A stretch of DNA of 64,000 nt from Ruminococcus sp. (GTDB lineage Bacteria > Bacillota > Clostridia > Oscillospirales > Ruminococcaceae). The translations under genes were made by a program, and so were the position numbers. The DNA lies in contig SVNM01000001.1 of the NCBI GenBank assembly GCA_015066875.1, positions 7,815 through 71,814 of the forward strand, read 5' to 3'. Positions 47,897 to 63,912 of this stretch are shown here, piece after piece. How positions within the stretch are numbered: position 1 is the stretch's first letter; each line of letters opens with the position of its first letter. The notes beneath the pieces are model-generated. The model was not told where the DNA came from. It saw only the letters and a program-made list of their open reading frames with translations, and ran no database searches.

Positions 47897-48082
47897 ATGG
47901 ATAAAAAAAGATATAGACTGTATGATTACGCTGAAGATTACGGTGTTGTCGGTTATTATGACACTATCGAAGAAGCACGGAAAGCGAAAACCGAGTGGGA
48001 ACATGATACCGATGGGGATTGTGATCTTGATATCCAGAAATGGGACGAAGAAAAGGGCAAATACCTTGACTGTTATGAATAG
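47897..48082 (+). CDS. Phage hypothetical protein (61 aa)
   Basis: AGGAGG RBS before ATG 47897. Confidence 0.65.
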   Translation: MDKKRYRLYDYAEDYGVVGYYDTIEEARKAKTEWEHDTDGDCDLDIQKWDEEKGKYLDCYE

Positions 48083-48168
48083 CCGAAACAGCGGAATGGA
48101 ATCCAGCGGAGGCTCTCCGCCCGCTGTCTGCCGGGGACGGTCTCCCGGTACTGACGATGGCAGACCAC
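48081..48168 (+). ncRNA. Type II hammerhead ribozyme, copy 1
   Basis: GCC-GAAA-CAGCGG...CCGCTG-TC^-TGCCGGG...CCCGGTA-CTGACGA-TGGC-AGACC; full core, three stems, loop-I GGTCT pairs with 3' AGACC; predicted cleavage after 48128. Confidence 0.9.
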
Positions 48169-48206
48169 AAAGCCATAGTAACTTGAAAATGAAAGAGGTG
48201 AAATGC

Positions 48207-52743: not shown

Positions 52744-52829
52744 AGCCGAAACAGCGGATGGAAGCCCTCGAAGCTCTCCGCCCGCTGTCTGCCGGAAATG
52801 GTCTACCGGCACTGACGATGGCAGACCAC
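52744..52829 (+). ncRNA. Type II hammerhead ribozyme, copy 2
   Basis: GCC-GAAA-CAGCGG...CCGCTG-TC^-TGCCGG...CCGGCA-CTGACGA-TGGC-AGACCA; loop TGGTCT pairs with AGACCA; predicted cleavage after 52789. Confidence 0.9.
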
Positions 52830-52861
52830 AGTATTTTGAAAATCGAATAGGAGGAATTTTT

Positions 52862-54581: not shown

Positions 54582-54710
54582 ATGCTTGAAAATATTCTTA
54601 CCTTTATTATTGGCATCGGCTTAGGTGCAACAGTAACACTATTTGCAATGTGTATGTGCATTATTTCAAAGGAGGCAGATAAGGATGAGAACTCCGACAA
54701 AGACAAATAA
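54582..54710 (+). CDS. Small single-TM phage protein (42 aa)
   Basis: MLENILTFIIGIGLGATVTLFAMCMCIISK..., GAGGTG RBS. Confidence 0.55.
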   Translation: MLENILTFIIGIGLGATVTLFAMCMCIISKEADKDENSDKDK

Positions 54711-54981
54711 TGAGCTTTTTGACCGATTTTGGAAGGCTTATCCCCGAAAAGAAGGAAAGCCTAAGGCGATGAGTACATTTGAAAAGCTCAAAATAACACC
54801 TGAAATACTTGAGAAGGTCCTTGCTGAATTGAAACGCCAGTCAAAACTTAAGGACTGGCGGCATATCAATACCAAGTATATACCTTTAGCTCAGACTTGG
54901 CTAAATCGTCGTGACTGGGAGGAAGCTCATGGAACAGATACAGACAATGATGCCCCAAATCAATACGGAACGTTCATATGA
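54685..54981 (+). CDS. Stand-alone C-terminal domain of a phage replication initiator
   Basis: FDRFWKAYPRKEGK...YIPLAQTWLNRRDWEE, typical of replisome-organizer C-termini; no N-terminal HTH. Confidence 0.7.
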   Translation: MRTPTKTNNELFDRFWKAYPRKEGKPKAMSTFEKLKITPEILEKVLAELKRQSKLKDWRHINTKYIPLAQTWLNRRDWEEAHGTDTDNDAPNQYGTFI

Positions 54982-55711
54982 AGAACTTCTGCAGATGAAA
55001 GTCAACGCATATAACAGTCGCCCCGGTAATCTTACCGGGTATGACTGTAGCGTTTGCAAGAACAAAGGATATATAGCCAAAATCAAGGACGGAGCTGAGG
55101 TGCTTGCTGAATGCAAGTGCTATAAGATACGTGACACCCTTTATCATATCCACAAGAGTGGACTGGAAGAACCACTGCGCAGGTGTACGTTCCGCAGCTT
55201 TGAGTGTTCAGAACAGTGGCAGGAAAAGCTTAAGGAGAAAGCGTTACAATTCCTTGAAAAAGGAAAAGGCAGTATGTTTGTTGGTGGTCAGTGCGGAAGC
55301 GGGAAAACACATATTTGTACTGCTGTTGTTGGCGGTTTCATAAAAAAAGGAATGTCTGCAAGATATTTCGTGTGGCGTGAAGATTCAACGGCTTTGAAAG
55401 CTATTGTAAACGACAAGGAATACTCTGCAGTACTTGATTCGTATAAAAAAACAGATGTCCTGTATATTGATGATTTGTTTAAGCAAACTGACATAAAGGA
55501 TGCTGATATCAGGCTTGCTTTCGAGCTCATTGATTACAGAGCACGTAACAGTCTTATAACAATAATATCCAGCGAGCGCACATTGAGTGAGCTTGTTGCT
55601 ATAGATGAAGGTCTCGGAAGTCGTATCGTTGATATCACTTCAGATGCACAAATAAATATATCGAGGGATAAAGCAAGGAATTACCGTTTAAAGGAAAGGA
55701 GTAGATTATAA
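54929..55711 (+). CDS. DnaC/IstB-like helicase loader ATPase
   Basis: CSVCKNKG...ECKC zinc motif, GQCGSGKTH, VLYIDDLFK, IISSE, GSRI. Confidence 0.88.
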   Translation: MEQIQTMMPQINTERSYEELLQMKVNAYNSRPGNLTGYDCSVCKNKGYIAKIKDGAEVLAECKCYKIRDTLYHIHKSGLEEPLRRCTFRSFECSEQWQEKLKEKALQFLEKGKGSMFVGGQCGSGKTHICTAVVGGFIKKGMSARYFVWREDSTALKAIVNDKEYSAVLDSYKKTDVLYIDDLFKQTDIKDADIRLAFELIDYRARNSLITIISSERTLSELVAIDEGLGSRIVDITSDAQINISRDKARNYRLKERSRL

Positions 55712-55859: not shown

Positions 55860-56351
55860 ATGGCAGCAGGAATGACTAAACGGTTGTATGCACTCGCTGC
55901 AAGTCTGGGATTGGTCGAACGCAACAATAAAGACGATCCTTTCCATCAGCTTGTGTATGGTGTTACCGAAAAAACATCTGTAAGTGATCTTACAGCGGCA
56001 GAGGCAAAGATTGTTGAACGTGAGCTTATACAGCGTATGAAACTCAGCAATCAGAGCAAGCCGTTAAAACATAAATCATCAAAAATCAACACGGTTCCGG
56101 GAATGATGACCGTACAGCAGCAGAATCTTGCCTGGAGGCTTGTATATCGTCTTGATGAACTTCAACCCACACATACAACAGTCGGAGATCGACTTGTTGG
56201 TGCAATTCAAAAGGAGCTCGGTATTACTGCTTCGGTTAAACAGCCATTCCGTTGGATAAACTTTGAAGACGGAACAAAACTTATAGAGCAGCTGAAGCGA
56301 TATGTCCGTAGTGCAGAACGCCGTGCGGCAAAAAAGGCAGGTGCCGGGTAA
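55860..56351 (+). CDS. GemA-like (DUF1018) protein
   Basis: LYALAASLGL...TSVSDLTAAEA...LIEQLKR; directly upstream of Mor as in transposable phages. Confidence 0.75.
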   Translation: MAAGMTKRLYALAASLGLVERNNKDDPFHQLVYGVTEKTSVSDLTAAEAKIVERELIQRMKLSNQSKPLKHKSSKINTVPGMMTVQQQNLAWRLVYRLDELQPTHTTVGDRLVGAIQKELGITASVKQPFRWINFEDGTKLIEQLKRYVRSAERRAAKKAGAG

Positions 56352-56665
56352 TGGATATTGACAAGCTTGTCAGTCTCGACCAGCTCCGTGATGATCAGAG
56401 GGAGCTCGCTGAGATTATCGGACTTGAGGCATACAAGCAATTAATCAAATATTACGGTGGAACTCCCTTGTATATTCAGAAAGCAGAATCTGTTTTAAAA
56501 GACTCAAGAGATAAGGAGCTTAACGAAAAATTTGACGGAAGTAATTATAAGGAGCTTGCTCGTGAATATGGAATATCTGAAATGACAATTCGGGATATTG
56601 TCGCACCTAAACGCAGAGAGTTGAGAGTAGCTCCTTTGGAAGGTCAGTTAAGTTTTGAAGAGTGA
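56351..56665 (+). CDS. Mor/C family transcription activator
   Basis: LAEIIGLE...YYGGTPLYI...RD...FDGSNYKELAREYGISEMTIRDI. Confidence 0.9.
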   Translation: MDIDKLVSLDQLRDDQRELAEIIGLEAYKQLIKYYGGTPLYIQKAESVLKDSRDKELNEKFDGSNYKELAREYGISEMTIRDIVAPKRRELRVAPLEGQLSFEE

Positions 56666-56715
56666 GTATAAAGTAAAATTCTGCAAAATGTTTCTATATA
56701 CAGGATATAATTTAT

Positions 56716-56760
56716 AATGGTATAATCAGTTCGAAAGATTGATTATACCATTTTTTTATT
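56716..56760 (+). terminator. Hairpin plus U-tract between Mor and the late genes
   Basis: AATGGTATAATCAGT-TCGAAAG-ATTGATTATACCATT-TTTTT. Confidence 0.7.
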
Positions 56761-57439: not shown

Positions 57440-57979
57440 ATGGGACATAGAAAACATTCAAAAATTGATAAACTCGAACCTGCGGTAAAAGAGACTGTTG
57501 ACGAGATGATAAAGACAGGAGCTTATTACCGTGAAATTGTTGATTATATAAAGTCGCACGGCGTAAGCATTTCCCTCGCTGCAGTCGGTAATTACGCTAA
57601 GAACCTTATGAGCACATTGGATGCATTGCGTATGAGTCAGGAAAACTTCCGGGCAATTATGGAAGAGACTGACAAATATCCGAATCTTGACATTACTGAC
57701 GGAATTTTAAGGTTACTTAGTAATCAGATACTCGAGGCAATCAACAAGATGCCTGAAGAACAGCTTCAGGAACTTGATTTTGAAACGCTTTCCAAAAATG
57801 CGATTGCTCTTACCAGAGCTGCAGCATATAAGAAGCAGATTGACATTAAAAACAAGGATATTCTTGAAAATGGTGCAGATCAGTTCAAGAACCTTATTTT
57901 CGAGGCAATGGCTGCAGAACGTCCGGAGCTGTATAAAGAGGTTAAAAAGTTCCTCAAGTCCAAGCAGGAAGCCGGGTGA
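57440..57979 (+). CDS. Mu gp27-like (DUF3486) putative small terminase
   Basis: RKHSKIDKL...YREIVDYI...GVSISLAAVGNY...PELY. Confidence 0.8.
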   Translation: MGHRKHSKIDKLEPAVKETVDEMIKTGAYYREIVDYIKSHGVSISLAAVGNYAKNLMSTLDALRMSQENFRAIMEETDKYPNLDITDGILRLLSNQILEAINKMPEEQLQELDFETLSKNAIALTRAAAYKKQIDIKNKDILENGADQFKNLIFEAMAAERPELYKEVKKFLKSKQEAG

Positions 57980-57984
57980 TAAAT

Positions 57985-58470
57985 ATGGAAGTATATGTAT
58001 TACAAATCCAGCCCGGGTATGAAAAATATGCGGCAAGAGCGCTGAGACAAAGAGGTTTTAATTCGATGTGCCCAATCACGGAAGCAATAATCCGAAAAGG
58101 CGGACAGTGGCACAGGCGAGAAAAACTTGTATTTACACAGTACATTTTTGTCGAGTGTGATCTTACTGATGAAGCGTACTATCGTATCAAATCTGTGTGC
58201 GGTGTAGTGCGTTTTCTGGGGCACGGTAAACCTGAACCACTACCAACTGATGAATCGTTATACATCAAGTTCTTACACAACGGTGATAAGATTATTGAAG
58301 CTTCTAAGGTTTATGTAACAGGTACTGGCGAGAAGATGATACTCTCAGGCTTGCTCAGAGAATATACAAATAATATTATAGGTCTTGATCTCAGGCAGCG
58401 AAGAGCCGATGTAGCGATAACGCTGCACGGCAAGCGCCATGTGATTACACTGCCTGTAATAAGTATTTAA
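57985..58470 (+). CDS. NusG paralog antiterminator (LoaP-like)
   Basis: NGN domain (YVLQIQPGYE...IRKGGQW...LVFTQYIFV...GVVRFLG...PEPL) plus KOW-like C-terminus (ILSGLL...LDLRQRRA). Confidence 0.85.
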   Translation: MEVYVLQIQPGYEKYAARALRQRGFNSMCPITEAIIRKGGQWHRREKLVFTQYIFVECDLTDEAYYRIKSVCGVVRFLGHGKPEPLPTDESLYIKFLHNGDKIIEASKVYVTGTGEKMILSGLLREYTNNIIGLDLRQRRADVAITLHGKRHVITLPVISI

Positions 58471-58495
58471 AGACCATTTAAAAACAGCACGATTA

Positions 58496-58590
58496 CATCA
58501 GTACGGTTGATTCGTCCCGTGCTGATGAGCGTGTGTGTATATAACCGGAACGGATTTTGAAATGAGAAAATCCGAATGGCGAAGCACGCC
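58496..58590 (+). ncRNA. Candidate antitermination cis-RNA (bulged UUCG hairpin plus second domain)
   Basis: CAUCAGUACGG-UU-GA-UUCG-UC-CCGUGCUGAUG; GCGUG/CACGC enclosing CGGAUUUU/AAAAUCCG and UGGCGAAG. Confidence 0.6.
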
Positions 58591-58736
58591 CGCAAAAATA
58601 TGCGTTTAAAATGTGTTTAACACCGCTTGTATGTGTTTAAAAGAATTCGGCGGTCAAATTACCCTAATAAAATTCAAAGGGCAAAAAAAGGGCAAAATAA
58701 GCCCTTATTTTTTATTCATTGAAAGGAGACGTTAAT

Positions 58737-59090
58737 GTGAGCAGTATAAAAAAGAAAAGTATCAAGTCTCTGGCTGATGGACTCTTTAAGTTTGAAGATA
58801 GTAAAAACGCTGTCAAAAACTCTGATTATACAGATTTAAACAGCTTTATAAAGGATTTTCTTAATACGCCTGAACCGAAGCAGCGTAAAAAACTGGCTGA
58901 AGAATTCAAAAAGCGTCACCTCGAGCTGTATGAATTTATAAAAACAAACGCTTCACTTATTGCTGCTGAAACGGAAATTGCAAAAACAGTAAACGCAGCA
59001 CTTGCCGGTGAGGAACAGGCAGCTGAAAACAAGCAGCTCACCAATCTCCTTGAAATGATAGCTCAGAGCATGGAGAGTGACGGCAAATGA
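58737..59090 (+). CDS. Hypothetical protein preceding the terminase (possible TerS or chimeric remnant)
   Basis: AAAGGAG RBS, GTG start, overlaps the TerL start. Confidence 0.65.
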   Translation: MSSIKKKSIKSLADGLFKFEDSKNAVKNSDYTDLNSFIKDFLNTPEPKQRKKLAEEFKKRHLELYEFIKTNASLIAAETEIAKTVNAALAGEEQAAENKQLTNLLEMIAQSMESDGK

Positions 59091-60370
59091 TGTATGAGGA
59101 ATTTTCTCCTAAGCAGCTTAAGTCAATGTTTTGGTGGCAGATGCCTGAAACAAAAGACTGCGACGCTATTGTTTGTGACGGCTCAGTTCGTTCAGGAAAA
59201 ACAATGTCAATGACCATAGGCTTTGTGTTCTGGAGCGGCACTTGCTTTAACGGTGAGAGCTTTGCATTCTGCGGCAAAACAATAGACTCTCTTAAGCGTA
59301 ATGTTATAACTCCGATGCAAAAATGGCTTGAGGGTGTTGCAACTCCTAAAATTAATCTGAGCAGGAACTGCTGTGAAATTACTATTGGAAAAAACACCAA
59401 TCGTTTTTACTTTTTCGGTGGCAAGGACGAAAGCTCGTATCAGTTGATTCAGGGTTTGACTCTTGCCGGAGTTCTTTTTGATGAAGCAGCTCTGATGCCT
59501 CGTTCTTTCATTGAGCAGGCTATTGCACGATGTTCCGTCAGCGGTTCCAAATTCTGGTTTAACTGTAACCCTGATAATCCGCATCACTGGTTTAATGTTG
59601 AGTGGATTGACGAACAAGGCGAAAAAGCAGAAGCGGTAAAAGCAAAAAACCGTCTGCACTTGCATTTTACAATGAAAGACAACTATGCACTGTCGGAAAC
59701 AGTAAGAGAACGTTATGAGCGAATGTATTCAGGTGTGTTCTACGATCGATACGTATTAGGGCGCTGGACATCGGCTGATGGCATCATATATCAGCAGTTC
59801 GCCGAGAATCCGCAGGCGTTTGTTATTGATACTCCCCCCGATGATATTGTTTTCTGTAATATCGGCTGGGACTTCGGCGGCAACGGATCCGCTCATGCAG
59901 GTATCTGTACAGGTTTCAGCAGGGCTTACCGTAAGGTGGTCATCCTCGAGGAGTATTACAGAAAGGAAATAATCTCTCCTGAAGAATTGGAACGTGATTT
60001 TGTAAACTTTGTGAAGAAATGTCAGGGCAAATACAAAGTATTTGATTCTTATCCTGATTCTGCAGAACAGGTGCTTATCAAAGGTTTTCGAAAAGCCTGC
60101 TCCAAAGCTCACGTGCCAATTGAAATACATAACGCACGTAAATCTGAAATATTAGGTCGTATACGCTTTACAGATATGATAATGTCTCAGGGCAGGTTTG
60201 CTGTAATGAGACATTGCAAACATGTGATTGAAGCTCTTAAGACTGCTGTTTGGGACAGTGACAGCAGTGAAGATGTACGTCTTGATGATGGTAATTATAA
60301 CATTGACAGCCTTGACGCATTTGAATATAGCTTCGAGGCGAAAATGAATGAAATTATAGAAATGGGGTGA
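59087..60370 (+). CDS. terL: Terminase large subunit, PBSX family
   Basis: DGSVRSGKT, GGKDESS, LFDEAAL, NCNPDNPHHWF, GWDFG, DSLDAFEY. Confidence 0.92.
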   Translation: MMYEEFSPKQLKSMFWWQMPETKDCDAIVCDGSVRSGKTMSMTIGFVFWSGTCFNGESFAFCGKTIDSLKRNVITPMQKWLEGVATPKINLSRNCCEITIGKNTNRFYFFGGKDESSYQLIQGLTLAGVLFDEAALMPRSFIEQAIARCSVSGSKFWFNCNPDNPHHWFNVEWIDEQGEKAEAVKAKNRLHLHFTMKDNYALSETVRERYERMYSGVFYDRYVLGRWTSADGIIYQQFAENPQAFVIDTPPDDIVFCNIGWDFGGNGSAHAGICTGFSRAYRKVVILEEYYRKEIISPEELERDFVNFVKKCQGKYKVFDSYPDSAEQVLIKGFRKACSKAHVPIEIHNARKSEILGRIRFTDMIMSQGRFAVMRHCKHVIEALKTAVWDSDSSEDVRLDDGNYNIDSLDAFEYSFEAKMNEIIEMG

Positions 60371-60376
60371 TATAGT

Positions 60377-61801
60377 ATGGATATACAGGCGATAAAACAG
60401 GCTTTCCCACAGAGAAATATCCCATTGGTGGGATCGTATTACAGCGAATATATCGAAAAATGGAAAAAAATCTTTGAAAATAATCCCCCTTGGAAAAAAG
60501 TGAAAAAGGGCGGATTATATAAAAAAGGTACCCGTGATATGAATACATTAAACGCTGCTAAAGTTTTGTGTGACTGCTTTTCCGAGCTCACGTTTTCAGA
60601 ACAGTGTGAGATAACGATTGACGATGATGAGTATCAGAAGTATATCAATGAAGAGCTGGAACGAAACGGTTTCTGGGATAATATGCCTGAACTGATAAGC
60701 AATGCCTATGCTCTGGGCGGCTGTGCTATTAAAGTTTATGAAAAAATCGCAAAACCCCGAATCAACTATGTTCATGCAGATAAGTTTCTTCCCGTTAGCT
60801 GGACAGGAAAAACAGTTACCGACGGTTCTTTCGTCACTGTATCTCAGAAAAACGGAAGATATTACACTCTTATTGAAATGGAAAGCAGCGGCAAGGTTGA
60901 ATATAAACTTTTCAAGTCAGAAACACGGAGCACGCTGGGTGTGCCGTGCAAATTAAGCGAATTATACAATTGTGATGATGTAACAAATTATGGTACAGAT
61001 GTACCGATGTTTGCATATTTCAAGCCCTGTGTAAGTAATAACGCTGAATATGACACTCCCCTCGGTATGAGCATCTACGCCAATGCGATCGACACTTTAA
61101 AGGCTCTTGACGTTGCTTTCGACAGTTTCTCAAGGGAGTTTGAACTTGGCAAGAAAAGAATTATCGTTCCTTCTTCCGCAATACAAACTGTAGTTGATAC
61201 TAATACTGGTAACCTTGTAAAATACTTTGATTCTGATGATGAAGCCTTTGTTGCGCTTAAGTCTGATGATAAGGACAACCTTAAAATTACTGATAACACA
61301 GTCGAACTTCGTGTTCAGGAACACGTTTCTGCTATTAATGCTCTGCTTAACGTTCTTTGTTTTCAGGTCGGACTATCTCCGGGTACACTATCTTTTGACG
61401 CTGTTCAGGGCATGAAAACCGCAACTGAAGTTATTTCGCAGGATAGCAAAACTGCACGAACCATAAAGTCCAATAAGAATTTGCTGACAGAAGCTATAGA
61501 AACTGTTATTCACGCTCTTATCGCCGTAGGTGTACATACCGGAGCAATAAGCCGAAAGAACTACGAAGTTACAATAGGCTGGAAGGACAACATTGTAATT
61601 GATGATAATACACTTATTGACAATAATATCAAGCTTGTACAGGCAGGACTTAAATCCAAAGTCAAAGCAATTATGGAGGTGCAGAAATGTGATGAAGAAA
61701 CCGCCCTGAAGGAGCTTGAACGAATTACCAAAGAGGCTCAGATAACAGGTCTATCCGTTGATGATTTTATGAACGGTGGCGAAAATTATGACGAAGCTTG
61801 A
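60377..61801 (+). CDS. Portal protein (A118/SPP1 Gp6-like)
   Basis: PLGMSIYANAIDTLKALD...EFELGKKRIIVP...KTATEV. Confidence 0.88.
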   Translation: MDIQAIKQAFPQRNIPLVGSYYSEYIEKWKKIFENNPPWKKVKKGGLYKKGTRDMNTLNAAKVLCDCFSELTFSEQCEITIDDDEYQKYINEELERNGFWDNMPELISNAYALGGCAIKVYEKIAKPRINYVHADKFLPVSWTGKTVTDGSFVTVSQKNGRYYTLIEMESSGKVEYKLFKSETRSTLGVPCKLSELYNCDDVTNYGTDVPMFAYFKPCVSNNAEYDTPLGMSIYANAIDTLKALDVAFDSFSREFELGKKRIIVPSSAIQTVVDTNTGNLVKYFDSDDEAFVALKSDDKDNLKITDNTVELRVQEHVSAINALLNVLCFQVGLSPGTLSFDAVQGMKTATEVISQDSKTARTIKSNKNLLTEAIETVIHALIAVGVHTGAISRKNYEVTIGWKDNIVIDDNTLIDNNIKLVQAGLKSKVKAIMEVQKCDEETALKELERITKEAQITGLSVDDFMNGGENYDEA

Positions 61802-63629
61802 AATGATGCAGCACAGTCAAGGACTGAGCAATCTTTATACAGGGCTTGAAACTGACCTTATTGCTAATATCGCTGAATACCTGAAGCGTGGAGATATAGC
61901 CAGCACTACAGCACAGTGGAAGATGCAGATGCTTGCTCAGCTCGGTGCTCTGGATAAGGCAAATCTTAAGACGATTGCTGAATATGCAGAATTAACACCG
62001 GAAATGTTGACTGAAACACTTGAGGCTGCAGCTCTTACAGCAATTGGAGAGCTTGAACCGGGATTTCAAGAGCTCGCTCGTGACGGAATAATTAATGGTA
62101 CTGAAGTTCCAATTGAGAGCACAATGGAAAGAGCTCTGGAAGCCTACTACAAACAGGCAAAAGACGATATGAATATGGTAAATACAACTATGCTCTATAA
62201 GTCAAAATCCGCAGCTCAGAGGCTTATCAATGATACAGCAGAGCTTGCCAATAAACAATCCTTTCTGAATATGCTCAGCAAAGCTGCAGGTAAAACTGTT
62301 ACAGGAGCTGAAAGCCGACAGGCGGCAATGCGGCAGTGTATTAAGGAAATGTCCGACAAGGGCATTCCTGCTTTTGTGGATAAGCTTGGGCGTGAATGGT
62401 CGCCTGAAGCTTACATAAATATGAATATACGCACTACTGTTGCCAATACGGCTCATCAGGCACAGTTTGACCGTATGGATGATTATGACCTTAATCTTGT
62501 CGAAGTCTCCAGTCATTCGGGTGCACGTCCGAAATGTGCCAAAGACCAGGGTAAAATCTTCAATCGCAGTGGCAAAGGTGGAGTTACTGAAGATCTCAAC
62601 GGAAAGAAGATCCGTTACTATGCGTGGAGCGAATCTTCTTATGGAGAGCCTGACGGTCTGCTTGGTATCAACTGCGGTCATCAGATCTATCCATTTGTTC
62701 CCGGTATATCCCGTCAGACATATTTCCCCTATGATGAAGAGGAGAATAATGAGCTGTATCAGAAGATGCAAAGGCAACGTGAGCTTGAACGGCGTGTGCG
62801 AAAGTCAAAGCGTGAGTGCTTGACGCTTGAGAAGCTTGGCGATGCCAAAGGTCTTGAAAAGGCTTCTGTTACTCTGAAACAGCGTCAGGATGCATTGAAG
62901 CAATACTGCTCTGACAACGGTTTAAGTTACAAGCCCGACAGAACCGCTGTTGTGGGATATAACAGGGCTGTGGCAGGAAATGTGAGAAAATCGTTGACTT
63001 CGGTTAAAACCAGTCAGTATTTTAGAGCTATCAAATACGGCGAAAGCACTACTGTTAAGCGTGGAAGCGTGGAACTCACAATGCGTCGTGTAACCACCAC
63101 AAATAATAATATAAGCGTTTCTACAGGTTGCAAGCTTAGCCGAAAACAGCTACATAAGATTGATACTCAAACAACTAAAGCAATAAAAAAACTCCACGCT
63201 GTGGGTGCGGAGAATCTACCGTCAATATATGTTGTAAATCACAATGAAATGCAAACAAATGCTATTGCTTCATATAATGCTGTGAAAAATATCCTCATGA
63301 TTGATGAGAAATTCGGTGGGAATTTTAAACAGATAGCAGATTTACAGCGTGACGGAGCTTGTCCCGACAATCCAATCAGTACTGCTGTGCATGAATTACT
63401 GCACTGGAGCGATGCACAGGAATATCGGAAATATCACGGTGAAATTACTGAGGATAACTATTGGGAGTATATCGAACATCTCAATAAGAACCGAAAAATA
63501 TCACTTGACAAACTTGAAAAAAGCGGTTATAATGTGCATAATATAAGTACTTATGCTGAAGTTTCCTATAAAAATGGAGATTACGATGAAGTGTTTACAG
63601 AATACCGAGTAAAAAAACTGTTGAGGTGA
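61788..63629 (+). CDS. Minor capsid protein 2 (MuF-type) with C-terminal HExxH extension
   Basis: GREWS, VSSHSGARPKC...QG, GINCGH, QRELERRVRKSKR; extension VHELLH...ISTYA...EVFTE. Confidence 0.85.
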   Translation: MTKLEMMQHSQGLSNLYTGLETDLIANIAEYLKRGDIASTTAQWKMQMLAQLGALDKANLKTIAEYAELTPEMLTETLEAAALTAIGELEPGFQELARDGIINGTEVPIESTMERALEAYYKQAKDDMNMVNTTMLYKSKSAAQRLINDTAELANKQSFLNMLSKAAGKTVTGAESRQAAMRQCIKEMSDKGIPAFVDKLGREWSPEAYINMNIRTTVANTAHQAQFDRMDDYDLNLVEVSSHSGARPKCAKDQGKIFNRSGKGGVTEDLNGKKIRYYAWSESSYGEPDGLLGINCGHQIYPFVPGISRQTYFPYDEEENNELYQKMQRQRELERRVRKSKRECLTLEKLGDAKGLEKASVTLKQRQDALKQYCSDNGLSYKPDRTAVVGYNRAVAGNVRKSLTSVKTSQYFRAIKYGESTTVKRGSVELTMRRVTTTNNNISVSTGCKLSRKQLHKIDTQTTKAIKKLHAVGAENLPSIYVVNHNEMQTNAIASYNAVKNILMIDEKFGGNFKQIADLQRDGACPDNPISTAVHELLHWSDAQEYRKYHGEITEDNYWEYIEHLNKNRKISLDKLEKSGYNVHNISTYAEVSYKNGDYDEVFTEYRVKKLLR

Positions 63630-63633
63630 TATT

Positions 63634-63807
63634 ATGAGAATATACTTTACTGATGAAATGCGAAAATTAAGGACTATATATGAGCCTTATTTAGTGAATG
63701 GTATATTAAGAAAAGACGCTCCGCAAGAAGCTGTTGATGCTGAAAAGAAATTTATGGAATTATTTGATAAGGAAAAACAAAGAACTGTGGATTTAATTCT
63801 GCATTAA
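63634..63807 (+). CDS. Small protein (57 aa), candidate immunity protein
   Basis: GAGGTG RBS; MRIYFTDEMRKLRTIYEPYLVNGILRKDAPQEAVDAEKKFMELFDKEKQRTVDLILH. Confidence 0.65.
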   Translation: MRIYFTDEMRKLRTIYEPYLVNGILRKDAPQEAVDAEKKFMELFDKEKQRTVDLILH

Positions 63808-63880
63808 AACCGCTCCTGAGTGAGCGGTTTTCTCATACCCTAAAACACGAATTTAAACGCTCTTTTAAGAGCGTTTTTAT
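63806..63880 (+). terminator. Two tandem intrinsic terminators inside the late operon
   Basis: AAAACCGCTC/GAGCGGTTTT (63806-63831) and AAACGCTCTT/AAGAGCGTTTTT (63855-63878). Confidence 0.7.
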
Positions 63881-63912
63881 TATGCTTAAATTTATGAAAT
63901 GAGGTTGTTATT

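What the first reader, a model, noticed from the sequence alone, without database searches (positions are those of the whole stretch)
57985..58716. Phage-encoded LoaP-like NusG paralog with a candidate cognate RNA: possible processive antitermination system in a Mu-like phage
Seen: a NusG-family gene (NGN plus KOW-like domain with basic LDLRQRRA) sits in the late operon. It is followed by about 265 bp of non-coding DNA. This folds into an 11-bp stem with a UU bulge capped by GA-UUCG-UC (58496-58527) and a second domain ending UGGCGAAGCACGC. A weak terminator-like hairpin follows (58688-58716), and two more terminators lie inside the head operon (63806-63880). Known: Bacillus LoaP binds a bulged UNCG-tetraloop hairpin and antiterminates long biosynthetic operons. 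Phage Mu turns on late genes with Mor/C activators, not a NusG paralog. Inference: this phage adds a LoaP/RNA readthrough switch on top of Mor activation to express virion genes.
Basis: partly seen in the sequence, partly recalled or inferred. Interest (0 to 1): 0.85.

Follow-up and report, generated by a model that had tools for sequence, protein, structure and literature searches.

The report
Phage LoaP antiterminator with hybrid site
A family of Mu-like gut phages carries its own LoaP-type transcription factor gene directly followed by the orphan RNA motif RAGATH-28, whose two halves match the RNA hairpin used by LoaP and the DNA pause box used by RfaH and UpxY, so the pair likely forms an untested switch that lets RNA polymerase read through terminators into the virion genes.

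Summary
Confirmed. Gene 57985-58470 encodes a LoaP-like NusG paralog. Its predicted fold overlays the LoaP-RNA crystal structure over both domains (TM 0.85), but it scores below the LoaP cut-off (94.6 against 125 bits). The RNA behind it is Rfam RAGATH-28, a motif of unknown function. The two are tightly coupled: 74 of 75 viral loci found by RNA pattern alone and 7 of 7 genome hits carry the gene upstream. Gp27 lies upstream in 38 of 38 distinct elements with enough flank.

New reading: the 5' half is a bulged UNCG hairpin like LoaP's. The 3' half is a hairpin ending at -13/-14 plus GGCG-N-AGC-N-Y-R, the layout of Bacteroides opsX and RfaH ops pause sites. The same box follows the hairpin at 7 of 12 chromosomal LoaP-like loci.

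Best explanation (0.72): LoaP-type processive antitermination of a roughly 20-kb late operon, layered on Mor/C activation. Binding, pausing and readthrough are untested. The scan noted the gene-RNA pair before on another genome (e1-10223410). My searches did not find it in print.

The parts
56351..56665 (+). Mor/C-family late activator (context); C-terminal QLSF resembles a sliding-clamp-binding motif
   Evidence: Pfam Mor E 2.5e-16; PHROG late activator; loose clamp-like pattern near the C-terminus in 29 of 35 homologs
56697..56759 (+). Candidate late promoter (TG + TATAAT, 56721-56726) inside the 5' arm of a 16-bp terminator-like hairpin (56716-56752) that closes the mor transcript
   Evidence: hairpin and -10 kept with compensatory changes in the 6 relatives whose stretch covers it, of 7 aligned; promoter function inferred
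57440..57979 (+). Mu gp27-like / terminase small subunit gene, fixed upstream neighbour
   Evidence: Pfam PF11985; phrog_426; upstream in 38 of 38 distinct elements with >=1.9 kb flank
57985..58470 (+). LoaP-like NusG paralog, 161 aa (NGN with R-x-x-G-x-W beta-hairpin, KOW-like domain with basic D-x-R-x-R-R-A)
58487..58534 (+). 5' RNA hairpin: outer helix, 11-bp inner stem 58496-58527, UU bulge 58507-58508, two pairs closing the UUCG loop 58511-58514 (predicted LoaP-type binding site)
   Evidence: loop seen as UUCG 50, UACG 2, UCCG 1, UGCG 1
58501..58585 (+). Rfam RF03052 RAGATH-28 match (covers the inner hairpin, second hairpin and box)
   Evidence: 64.2 bits, E 4.8e-9
58538..58541 (+). Conserved YATA spacer motif about 29 nt after the loop, role unexplained
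   Evidence: YATA in 36 of 46 distinct elements; a YATA-like anchor at 27-31 nt in 41 of 44 anchored
58551..58574 (+). Second hairpin, predicted pause hairpin, ending at -14 relative to the predicted pause
   Evidence: ends at -13/-14 in 37 of 46 as run (one row mis-anchored)
58577..58588 (+). ops/opsX-like box T-GGCG-A-AGC-A-C-G; GCGAAGC mini-hairpin 58579-58585; predicted pause at C58587 (-1) with G58588 (+1)
   Evidence: compared with opsE and ops sequences printed in PMC11685472 and PMC5995543
58600..58670 (+). Phased GTTTAA-type repeats and a -10-like hexamer; possible second Mor/C-dependent promoter, separable from the RNA element
   Evidence: >=2 repeats in 14 of 46 elements against 0 in a control window; retained in L429, which lacks the element
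58688..58716 (+). Terminator-like hairpin plus U-tract gating the head genes
   Evidence: terminator-like site within 260 nt after the box in 30 of 46 elements against 21% of shuffles, many at +105 to +150 with unrelated sequences
58737..63629 (+). First predicted target genes: 117-aa ORF, terminase large subunit, portal, minor capsid
63806..63884 (+). Two further terminator-like hairpins (63806-63831, 63855-63876) ahead of the scaffold, capsid and tail genes that continue beyond the window
   Evidence: downstream genes

Best explanation
This is a phage-borne LoaP-like NusG paralog paired with the RAGATH-28 element, and the pair likely works as a processive antitermination switch for the late operon of Mu-like phages of Clostridia. 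Shown: the gene and the element co-occur in a fixed order; the 5' half is a covarying bulged UNCG hairpin; the 3' half is a covarying hairpin followed at a fixed distance by GGCG-N-AGC-N-Y-R; terminator-like hairpins lie downstream. Inferred steps: (1) The Mor/C activator fires the promoter near 56726, and the first 1.9 kb, including the paralog, is made. (2) Without the protein, most polymerases would stop at 58688-58716. (3) Once the protein has accumulated, polymerase would pause at 58587, held by the second hairpin and a G-10...Y-1/R+1 pause signal, with the GCGNAGC mini-hairpin exposed in the non-template DNA. (4) The protein would load there, binding the UNCG hairpin in the nascent RNA with its beta-hairpin and basic KOW face as LoaP does, and probably reading the DNA mini-hairpin as RfaH and UpxY do. 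(5) The modified polymerase would read through 58700, 63806-63884 and three more hairpins in the head-tail region. This would give a built-in delay before virion genes are expressed.
For: Coupling from RNA to protein: 74 of 75 pattern-found viral loci with >=600 nt upstream (many near-duplicates) and 7 of 7 RF03052 hits among 150 family genomes. From protein to RNA: 21 of 23 phage-type loci have the full element, 1 has the box with a changed loop, 1 has none. The one without (L419/L429) keeps GemA-Mor-gp25-gp26-gp27 but its protein has lost the beta-hairpin tip. Own arms pair better than chimeric arms for the inner, outer and second helix (0 of 2000 permutations each; control 1325 of 2000). 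The AF2 model (pLDDT 93.5) matches 8F5G over both domains at TM 0.85, rmsd 2.3 A, while NusG and RfaH entries reach TM <=0.57. Beta-hairpin Arg in 37/38 phage and 31/32 chromosomal LoaP-like rows against 3/11 NusG; KOW Arg in 35/38 and 32/32 against 0/11. 5 of 11 syntenic phage members tested exceed the LoaP cut-off. Four phage loci carry the same loop core as the validated dfn hairpin. Box: Y-R at positions 10/11 in 40 of 46 (background 22%) and 8 of 8 further loci; loop base A, G, C and T all seen; same register as opsE and the consensus YGCGNAGCR in PMC11685472. GCGNAGC is a very stable DNA mini-hairpin, and the one RNA analogue quoted is much weaker (PMC13037366). Terminator-like sites in 30 of 46 against 21%.
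Against: No binding, pausing, readthrough or expression data. The window's protein is below the LoaP cut-off (94.6 against 125), and the Glu that I map to LoaP E40 (needed for binding in PMC12691694) is Ile here and in 27 of 38 phage rows. The UUCG loop is closed by A-U, and the energy model leaves it open. 16 of 46 elements show no terminator within 260 nt. Phased repeats before the terminator may be a second promoter. L429 lacks the element. The B. velezensis dfn leader template has no exact box, its mapped pause lies in a different sequence, and LoaP there showed no specific DNA binding to the segments tested upstream of the hairpin. 21 of 33 chromosomal LoaP-like loci show no such hairpin nearby. 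Most box and loop letters were part of my search patterns, so their invariance is partly circular. RNAalifold on the MAFFT alignment recovered only 3 pairs.
Confidence: 0.72

Rival explanations
1. The protein binds the element, but the outcome is not terminator readthrough: it strengthens pausing or termination (negative autoregulation), stabilises the RNA, or helps load ribosomes on the next gene as RfaH does.
For: Pro-pausing UpxY classes with a basic KOW exist (PMC11685472 section 9). 16 of 46 elements lack a nearby terminator, and in L343, L349 and L372 a ribosome-binding site and ORF follow about 30 nt after the box. The element is in the 3' UTR of the protein's own gene.
Against: The nearest characterised relative is an antiterminator (PMC12691694). 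Terminator-like hairpins recur at a fixed distance with unrelated sequences, and about 18 kb of virion genes with internal hairpins lie downstream.
Confidence: 0.12
2. RAGATH-28 is an RNA-only recruitment or antitermination structure (conAn2- or put-like); the 3' box is an RNA motif and the protein is only a processivity factor.
For: conAn has the same layout, a protein gene followed by an RNA at the head of a long operon (PMC8191782 abstract and section 18). YATA and RRU near the box are conserved and unexplained. Weak pairing signal between YATA and the box start (39 of 2000).
Against: The box varies mainly at the mini-hairpin loop base, in all four letters, and keeps the Y-R pause register. 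No covariation between the YATA region and the post-box bases (1137 of 2000).
Confidence: 0.08
3. Head and tail genes are driven by their own Mor/C-dependent promoters, as in Mu, and the paralog-RNA module is accessory or acts on a minor share of transcripts.
For: Mu has four C-dependent late promoters (PMC12867686). Phased repeats and a -10-like hexamer lie at 58600-58670. L429 keeps these repeats but lacks the element.
Against: A promoter there would fire about 10-25 nt upstream of the terminator-like hairpin. The module is kept in 22 of 23 phage-type loci across proteins averaging about 37% identity.
Confidence: 0.06
4. RAGATH-28 is an independent ribozyme or trans-acting small RNA that only shares the neighbourhood.
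For: The motif's name refers to genes found near ribozymes (recalled), and this prophage has two hammerheads.
Against: It was found only directly behind the NusG paralog, and its conserved letters are largely accounted for by a UNCG cap and an ops-like box.
Confidence: 0.02

Closest known systems
LoaP with the dfn/mln leader hairpin (Bacillus velezensis; NCBIfam NF033641; PDB 8F5G)
   Same: Closest profile, tree neighbour and fold. Conserved beta-hairpin and KOW arginines. Bulged UNCG hairpin, with the dfn-type loop core in four phage loci. Intrinsic terminator downstream.
   Different: Phage late operon instead of polyketide or polysaccharide clusters. Element lies 3' of the protein's own gene. 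Cap is mostly UU-GA-UNCG-UC. Below the cut-off here. Adds a pause hairpin and a GCGNAGC box for which I found no description in LoaP work.
UpxY with opsX (Bacteroides fragilis CPS operons)
   Same: Pause hairpin followed by a GCGNAGC non-template hairpin and a Y/R pause, in the same register as opsE; hairpin end at -13/-14, within the -9 to -16 range given for opsX.
   Different: Protein scores only 36.6 bits against UpxY (cut-off 100). opsX lies upstream of the upxY gene, and Class-1 UpxY reads upstream DNA, not RNA. No UpxZ-like partner was looked for.
RfaH with ops (E. coli)
   Same: GCG..AGC stem and G-10...Y-1/R+1 pause layout.
   Different: ops has a 2-nt loop with the flipped T and no pause hairpin. 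The C-terminal domain here is predicted all-beta, not an autoinhibitory helical hairpin. RfaH acts mainly against Rho.
Rfam RF03052 RAGATH-28
   Same: The element is a member (64.2 bits).
   Different: Listed only as 'Gene; sRNA'. The model omits the outer helix and the Y-R positions, and did not hit the related chromosomal LoaP elements.
conAn (pLS20 conjugation antitermination)
   Same: Protein gene followed by a cis RNA element near the start of a long operon of a mobile element.
   Different: In conAn the RNA itself antiterminates and the protein is a processivity factor; here the protein is a NusG paralog.
Phage Mu late control (Mor/C)
   Same: GemA, Mor/C-family activator and gp25-26-27-like genes; clamp-motif-like tail on the activator.
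   Different: Mu uses four C-dependent promoters; a NusG paralog in Mu is not known to me (recalled). Head genes here are SPP1/A118-like.

Membership tests
LoaP | Score above the NF033641 cut-off (125 bits) | tested here: not met
   94.6 bits; 5 of 11 syntenic phage homologs tested do pass, at 136-165 bits
LoaP | Groups with LoaP, apart from housekeeping NusG and RfaH | tested here: met
   Quick ML tree, 95 rows: 83 LoaP-like and phage rows against 12 NusG/RfaH rows, SH-aLRT 94, midpoint root; 33 of 38 phage rows form one clade (96); no UpxY row included
LoaP | NGN plus beta KOW arranged as in the LoaP-RNA complex | tested here: met
   TM 0.85, rmsd 2.3 A over 163 columns to 8F5G; a predicted model
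LoaP | RNA-binding residues (E40, R41, basic KOW) | tested here: inconclusive
   Arg and KOW basic patch kept; Glu replaced by Ile. Mapping of the B. velezensis numbering is inferred; I143 was not mapped
LoaP | Bulged UNCG hairpin in cis, upstream of a terminator | tested here: met
LoaP | Specific RNA binding and NusA-antagonising readthrough | not testable with these tools
   needs binding assays and in vitro transcription
UpxY/opsX | Score above the NF033644 cut-off (100 bits) | tested here: not met
   36.6 bits
UpxY/opsX | Pause hairpin + GCGNAGC + Y-1/R+1 layout | tested here: met
   against PMC11685472; sequence layout only, and the opsE register is inferred from the paper's text
UpxY/opsX | Polymerase pauses there and the protein reads non-template DNA | not testable with these tools
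   needs NET-seq or scaffold assays
RfaH | TIGR01955 cut-off and helical autoinhibitory C-terminal domain | tested here: not met
   39.8 against 144.5 bits; C-terminal domain predicted as strands
Housekeeping NusG | TIGR00922 cut-off; the host's own single nusG | tested here: not met
   50.3 against 135.7 bits; the host has a separate NusG on contig C30 that groups with NusGs
RAGATH-28 (RF03052) | Above the gathering score 45.3 | tested here: met
   64.2 bits

The most novel reading that the evidence does not exclude
RAGATH-28 is a hybrid loading site in which one NusG paralog reads a nascent-RNA UNCG hairpin and an ops-like non-template DNA mini-hairpin at a hairpin-stabilised pause. It would be the late-gene switch of a large group of Mu-like phages, and the same two-part site at chromosomal loaP loci of Clostridia would mean that LoaP, UpxY and RfaH share one ancestral GCG..AGC pause signal, with RNA recognition added on top in LoaP.
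Probability: 0.45. Interest if true: 0.87.

Novelty: new variant of a known kind. Interest (0 to 1): 0.72.

Why it matters
It would give a function to an orphan Rfam RNA and show a phage using its own NusG paralog for late-gene control, the job lambda gives to Q. It also makes an open question directly testable: how LoaP is loaded on polymerase. PMC12691694 looked for a DNA recruitment sequence only upstream of the hairpin and did not rule one out; these loci point to an exact 12-base candidate and a predicted pause position downstream. A 161-aa protein plus a 100-nt cis element would also be a compact readthrough tool for long operons in Clostridia.

Tried and rejected
A single-protein scan of viral contigs found nothing; the 26-row alignment was too diverse for locus scans. 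No RNA holder was listed for this stretch, which says nothing about expression. Pairing of the YATA region with the bases after the box was tested and not supported. RNAalifold on the MAFFT alignment gave only 3 pairs, probably because helix lengths vary. Looser 16-17-base patterns were mostly chance: 7 of 78 and 3 of 80 loci with >=500 nt upstream had the gene; for the first pattern that was 0 of 57 without a stem and 7 of 21 with one, and the 14 with a stem but no gene were not examined further. L083 and L110 were dropped from the RNA set as likely chance matches. L024 was mis-anchored and corrected from then on. No clean covariation between the E/I position and the loop-closing pair. A resemblance of GGGCAUA in the dfn pause region to the YATA motif was dropped, because it reads as a degenerate second dfn hairpin. 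The GenBank phage collection gave only four unannotated human-gut phage contigs plus host nusG hits. The careful tree did not finish; the quick tree is reported. One search used wrong coordinates and was ignored. No complex prediction was run, since the partner in question is RNA or DNA.

Full report
Setting. The window is G000:C105:7815-71814 of a 2.25-Mb assembly. The closest named homologs come from Ruminococcus-type genomes. From about 45500 onwards it holds a transposable prophage: repressor, Cro, Mu-type transposase, AAA protein, GemA, Mor, gp25/26/27-like genes, the NusG paralog, then terminase, portal and minor capsid. Beyond the window come scaffold, major capsid, tail, tape measure, endolysin and a methylase. 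The late region spans about 20 kb on one strand.

Observation. The RNA is Rfam RAGATH-28, single-copy in the genome. The energy model does not close the two pairs under UUCG; those rest on comparison.

Protein. The best family is LoaP at 94.6 bits, under its cut-off of 125; NusG scores 50, RfaH 40, UpxY 37. PHROG 6386 already labels such phage proteins 'transcription antiterminator'. The best solved relative by sequence is 8F5G (E 7.5e-22, against 1e-13 for NusG). The AF2 model (pLDDT 93.5) overlays 8F5G across both domains (TM 0.85, rmsd 2.3 A), while other NusG and RfaH entries reach at most 0.57. In a quick tree of 95 rows the phage proteins sit with chromosomal LoaP-like proteins, apart from NusG and RfaH (SH-aLRT 94); 33 of 38 phage rows form one clade (96), and 5 lie outside it. 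Five of 11 phage members tested pass the LoaP cut-off. The beta-hairpin Arg and KOW Arg are shared with LoaP and mostly absent from NusG, but the Glu before the Arg is Ile in 27 of 38. A profile of the family finds 214 50%-identity clusters at E <= 1e-30, a figure that may include chromosomal LoaPs. Verdict: it works like LoaP by all structural signs; this copy is not a formal member.

Coupling. An RNA-only pattern scan gave 101 viral loci. Of the 75 with at least 600 nt upstream, 72 have the gene ending within the set distance, 2 more have it overlapping the RNA, and 1 has none; many loci are near-duplicates. The Rfam model over 150 family genomes hit 7, all with the paralog and gp27 upstream. 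Among 23 phage-type loci found through the protein, 21 have the full element, L418 has the box with a changed loop, and L419 has nothing. L419/L429 keeps the gene order, but its protein lacks the beta-hairpin tip: one natural case of joint loss. Among 46 distinct elements, all 38 with enough flank have gp27 upstream and 35 have Mor, two of the three misses being near a locus end.

RNA anatomy. Own arms pair better than arms swapped between loci for the inner stem, an outer helix missing from the Rfam model, and the second hairpin (0 of 2000 permutations each; unrelated control 1325 of 2000). On the alignment, 8 of 10 named pairs show changes on both sides, and the covariation score exceeds all 500 shuffles and all slid controls; these controls do not correct for relatedness. 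The loop occurs as UUCG, UACG, UCCG and UGCG; the high UUCG count reflects my patterns. The dfn hairpin printed in the supplement of PMC12691694 has the core CUGUUUCGGC, and four phage loci with the paralog upstream carry a hairpin of this type plus the box.

The 3' half. After the second hairpin comes RR-T-GGCG-N-AGC-N-Y-R-CC. Positions outside the first pattern are conserved too: C8 in 37 of 37, Y10 and R11 in 35 of 37 each; Y-R together in 40 of 46, against 22% background, and in 8 of 8 loci found by model or protein. N takes all four bases. PMC11685472 gives opsE as CTGCGAAGCATA, the hairpin region as -11 to +1, and the consensus YGCGNAGCR, preceded by a pause hairpin ending between -9 and -16. 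PMC5995543 gives ops as GGCGGTAGCGTG with the pause at T11. Placed in the opsE register (my inference), the phage box has G at -10, Y at -1 and R at +1, and the second hairpin ends at -13 or -14 in 37 of 46. GCGNAGC is a very stable DNA mini-hairpin, and the RNA analogue quoted is far weaker (PMC13037366). No RNA partner for the post-box bases was found. I therefore read the 3' half as a hairpin-stabilised pause with a non-template DNA hairpin.

Chromosomal LoaP loci. Of 33 LoaP-like loci from two genome samples (the 26 best non-phage hits and the 7), 12 have a GUUUCGGC hairpin within 170 nt after the gene. Of these, 7 have exact GGCGRAGC 74-146 nt later (0.03 expected from shuffles), 2 have one mismatch, and 3 have none. 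The loci checked are over the LoaP cut-off. The B. velezensis dfn template has no exact box, and its mapped pause lies elsewhere, so the two-part site is not universal.

Targets. A terminator-like hairpin lies within 260 nt after the box in 30 of 46 elements (21% in mononucleotide shuffles), often 105-150 nt away and with unrelated sequences; 16 have none by my scan. In this prophage further plus-strand intergenic hairpins lie at 63806-63884, before the scaffold gene, after the major tail gene and before the tape measure gene. The candidate late promoter sits in the 5' arm of the hairpin that closes mor and is conserved with compensatory changes. Phased repeats at 58600-58670 may be a second promoter; this is the main structural caveat.

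Mechanism and odds. LoaP-type readthrough 0.72; another outcome of the same binding 0.12; RNA-only antiterminator 0.08; accessory module 0.06; independent RNA 0.02. Nothing functional was measured.

Literature. 'RAGATH-28' occurs in 0 papers. Searches for LoaP with phage, LoaP with RNA hairpin, RAGATH (30 of 48 listed), transposable or Mu-like phage with NusG, NusG paralog with late genes (20 of 43 listed) and LoaP with ops-like showed no description of this system in the listings. What I saw: PMC12691694 passages, sections 3 (part 1) and 11, and the supplement; PMC11685472 passages and sections 9 and 10; PMC8191782 abstract and section 18; passages only of PMC5995543, PMC7819879, PMC12867686, PMC7593976, PMC5883640, PMC11061315, PMC13085918 and PMC13037366. 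That RAGATH-28 comes from PMC5737381 is recalled: its main text has no 'RAGATH' and its supplement could not be read, and it may already note nusG next to the motif. The 2017, 2021 and 2024 LoaP papers were not seen and may mention such loci.

Earlier notes of this scan. e1-10223410 reports the same gene-RNA pair on another genome, and related NusG-plus-leader cases were noted in phages of soil bacteria. I had the reading before looking, and they are not independent support. The few lines shown of e1-10223410 do not mention the opsX-like box; a words look-up for it returned two other findings.

Verdict. Real, strongly conserved and mechanistically interpretable: a new variant of LoaP-type antitermination in phages, with a composite RNA/DNA loading site as the novel, testable part. 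Interest 0.72.

Noticed in passing
window 48081-48169 and 52744-52830 (+): Two near-identical type II hammerhead ribozymes in the early region (53.2 and 46.5 bits); related prophages also carry one.
   Followed up: partly
window 56351-56665: The Mor/C protein ends in QLSF; a loose clamp-binding-like pattern is near the C-terminus in 29 of 35 homologs, in line with clamp-dependent Mor/C activation in PMC12867686.
   Followed up: partly
window 62910-63807: The minor capsid protein has a 240-aa tail with HELLH and a weak Tox-MPTase3 hit (E 0.007, under cut-off), followed by a 57-aa ORF with a 12/12 sigma-70 promoter inside the upstream gene (63505-63533) and two terminators: looks like a MuF-type toxin/immunity pair (family name recalled).
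   Followed up: partly
window 56716-56759: 16-bp hairpin plus U-tract after mor, with an extended -10 in its 5' arm, conserved with compensatory changes; a transcript starting there would lack the 5' arm and escape termination.
   Followed up: partly
window 58659 and 63835: A similar TACCCT-AAA stretch lies 20-30 nt upstream of both terminator-like hairpins; role unknown.
   Followed up: no
L019, L022, L024, L038, L086, L090, L091, L102, 25-45 nt after the box: By eye, a segment ending in a U-run can pair with the 5' side of the second hairpin, an alternative long-range helix that may act as a switch or escape duplex (sequences).
   Followed up: no
L429 (G072:C7:36500-42500): Mu-like prophage whose NusG paralog lost the beta-hairpin tip and which lacks the RNA element and a clear terminator.
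   Followed up: yes
L121, L123, L125 upstream of loaP; L412, L413 just upstream of a LoaP-like gene: Further box-like sequences upstream of chromosomal LoaP-like genes, without an obvious UNCG hairpin.
   Followed up: no
window 54643-55711: Replication-initiator-like ORF plus IstB/DnaC-like ATPase inside a transposable prophage.
   Followed up: no
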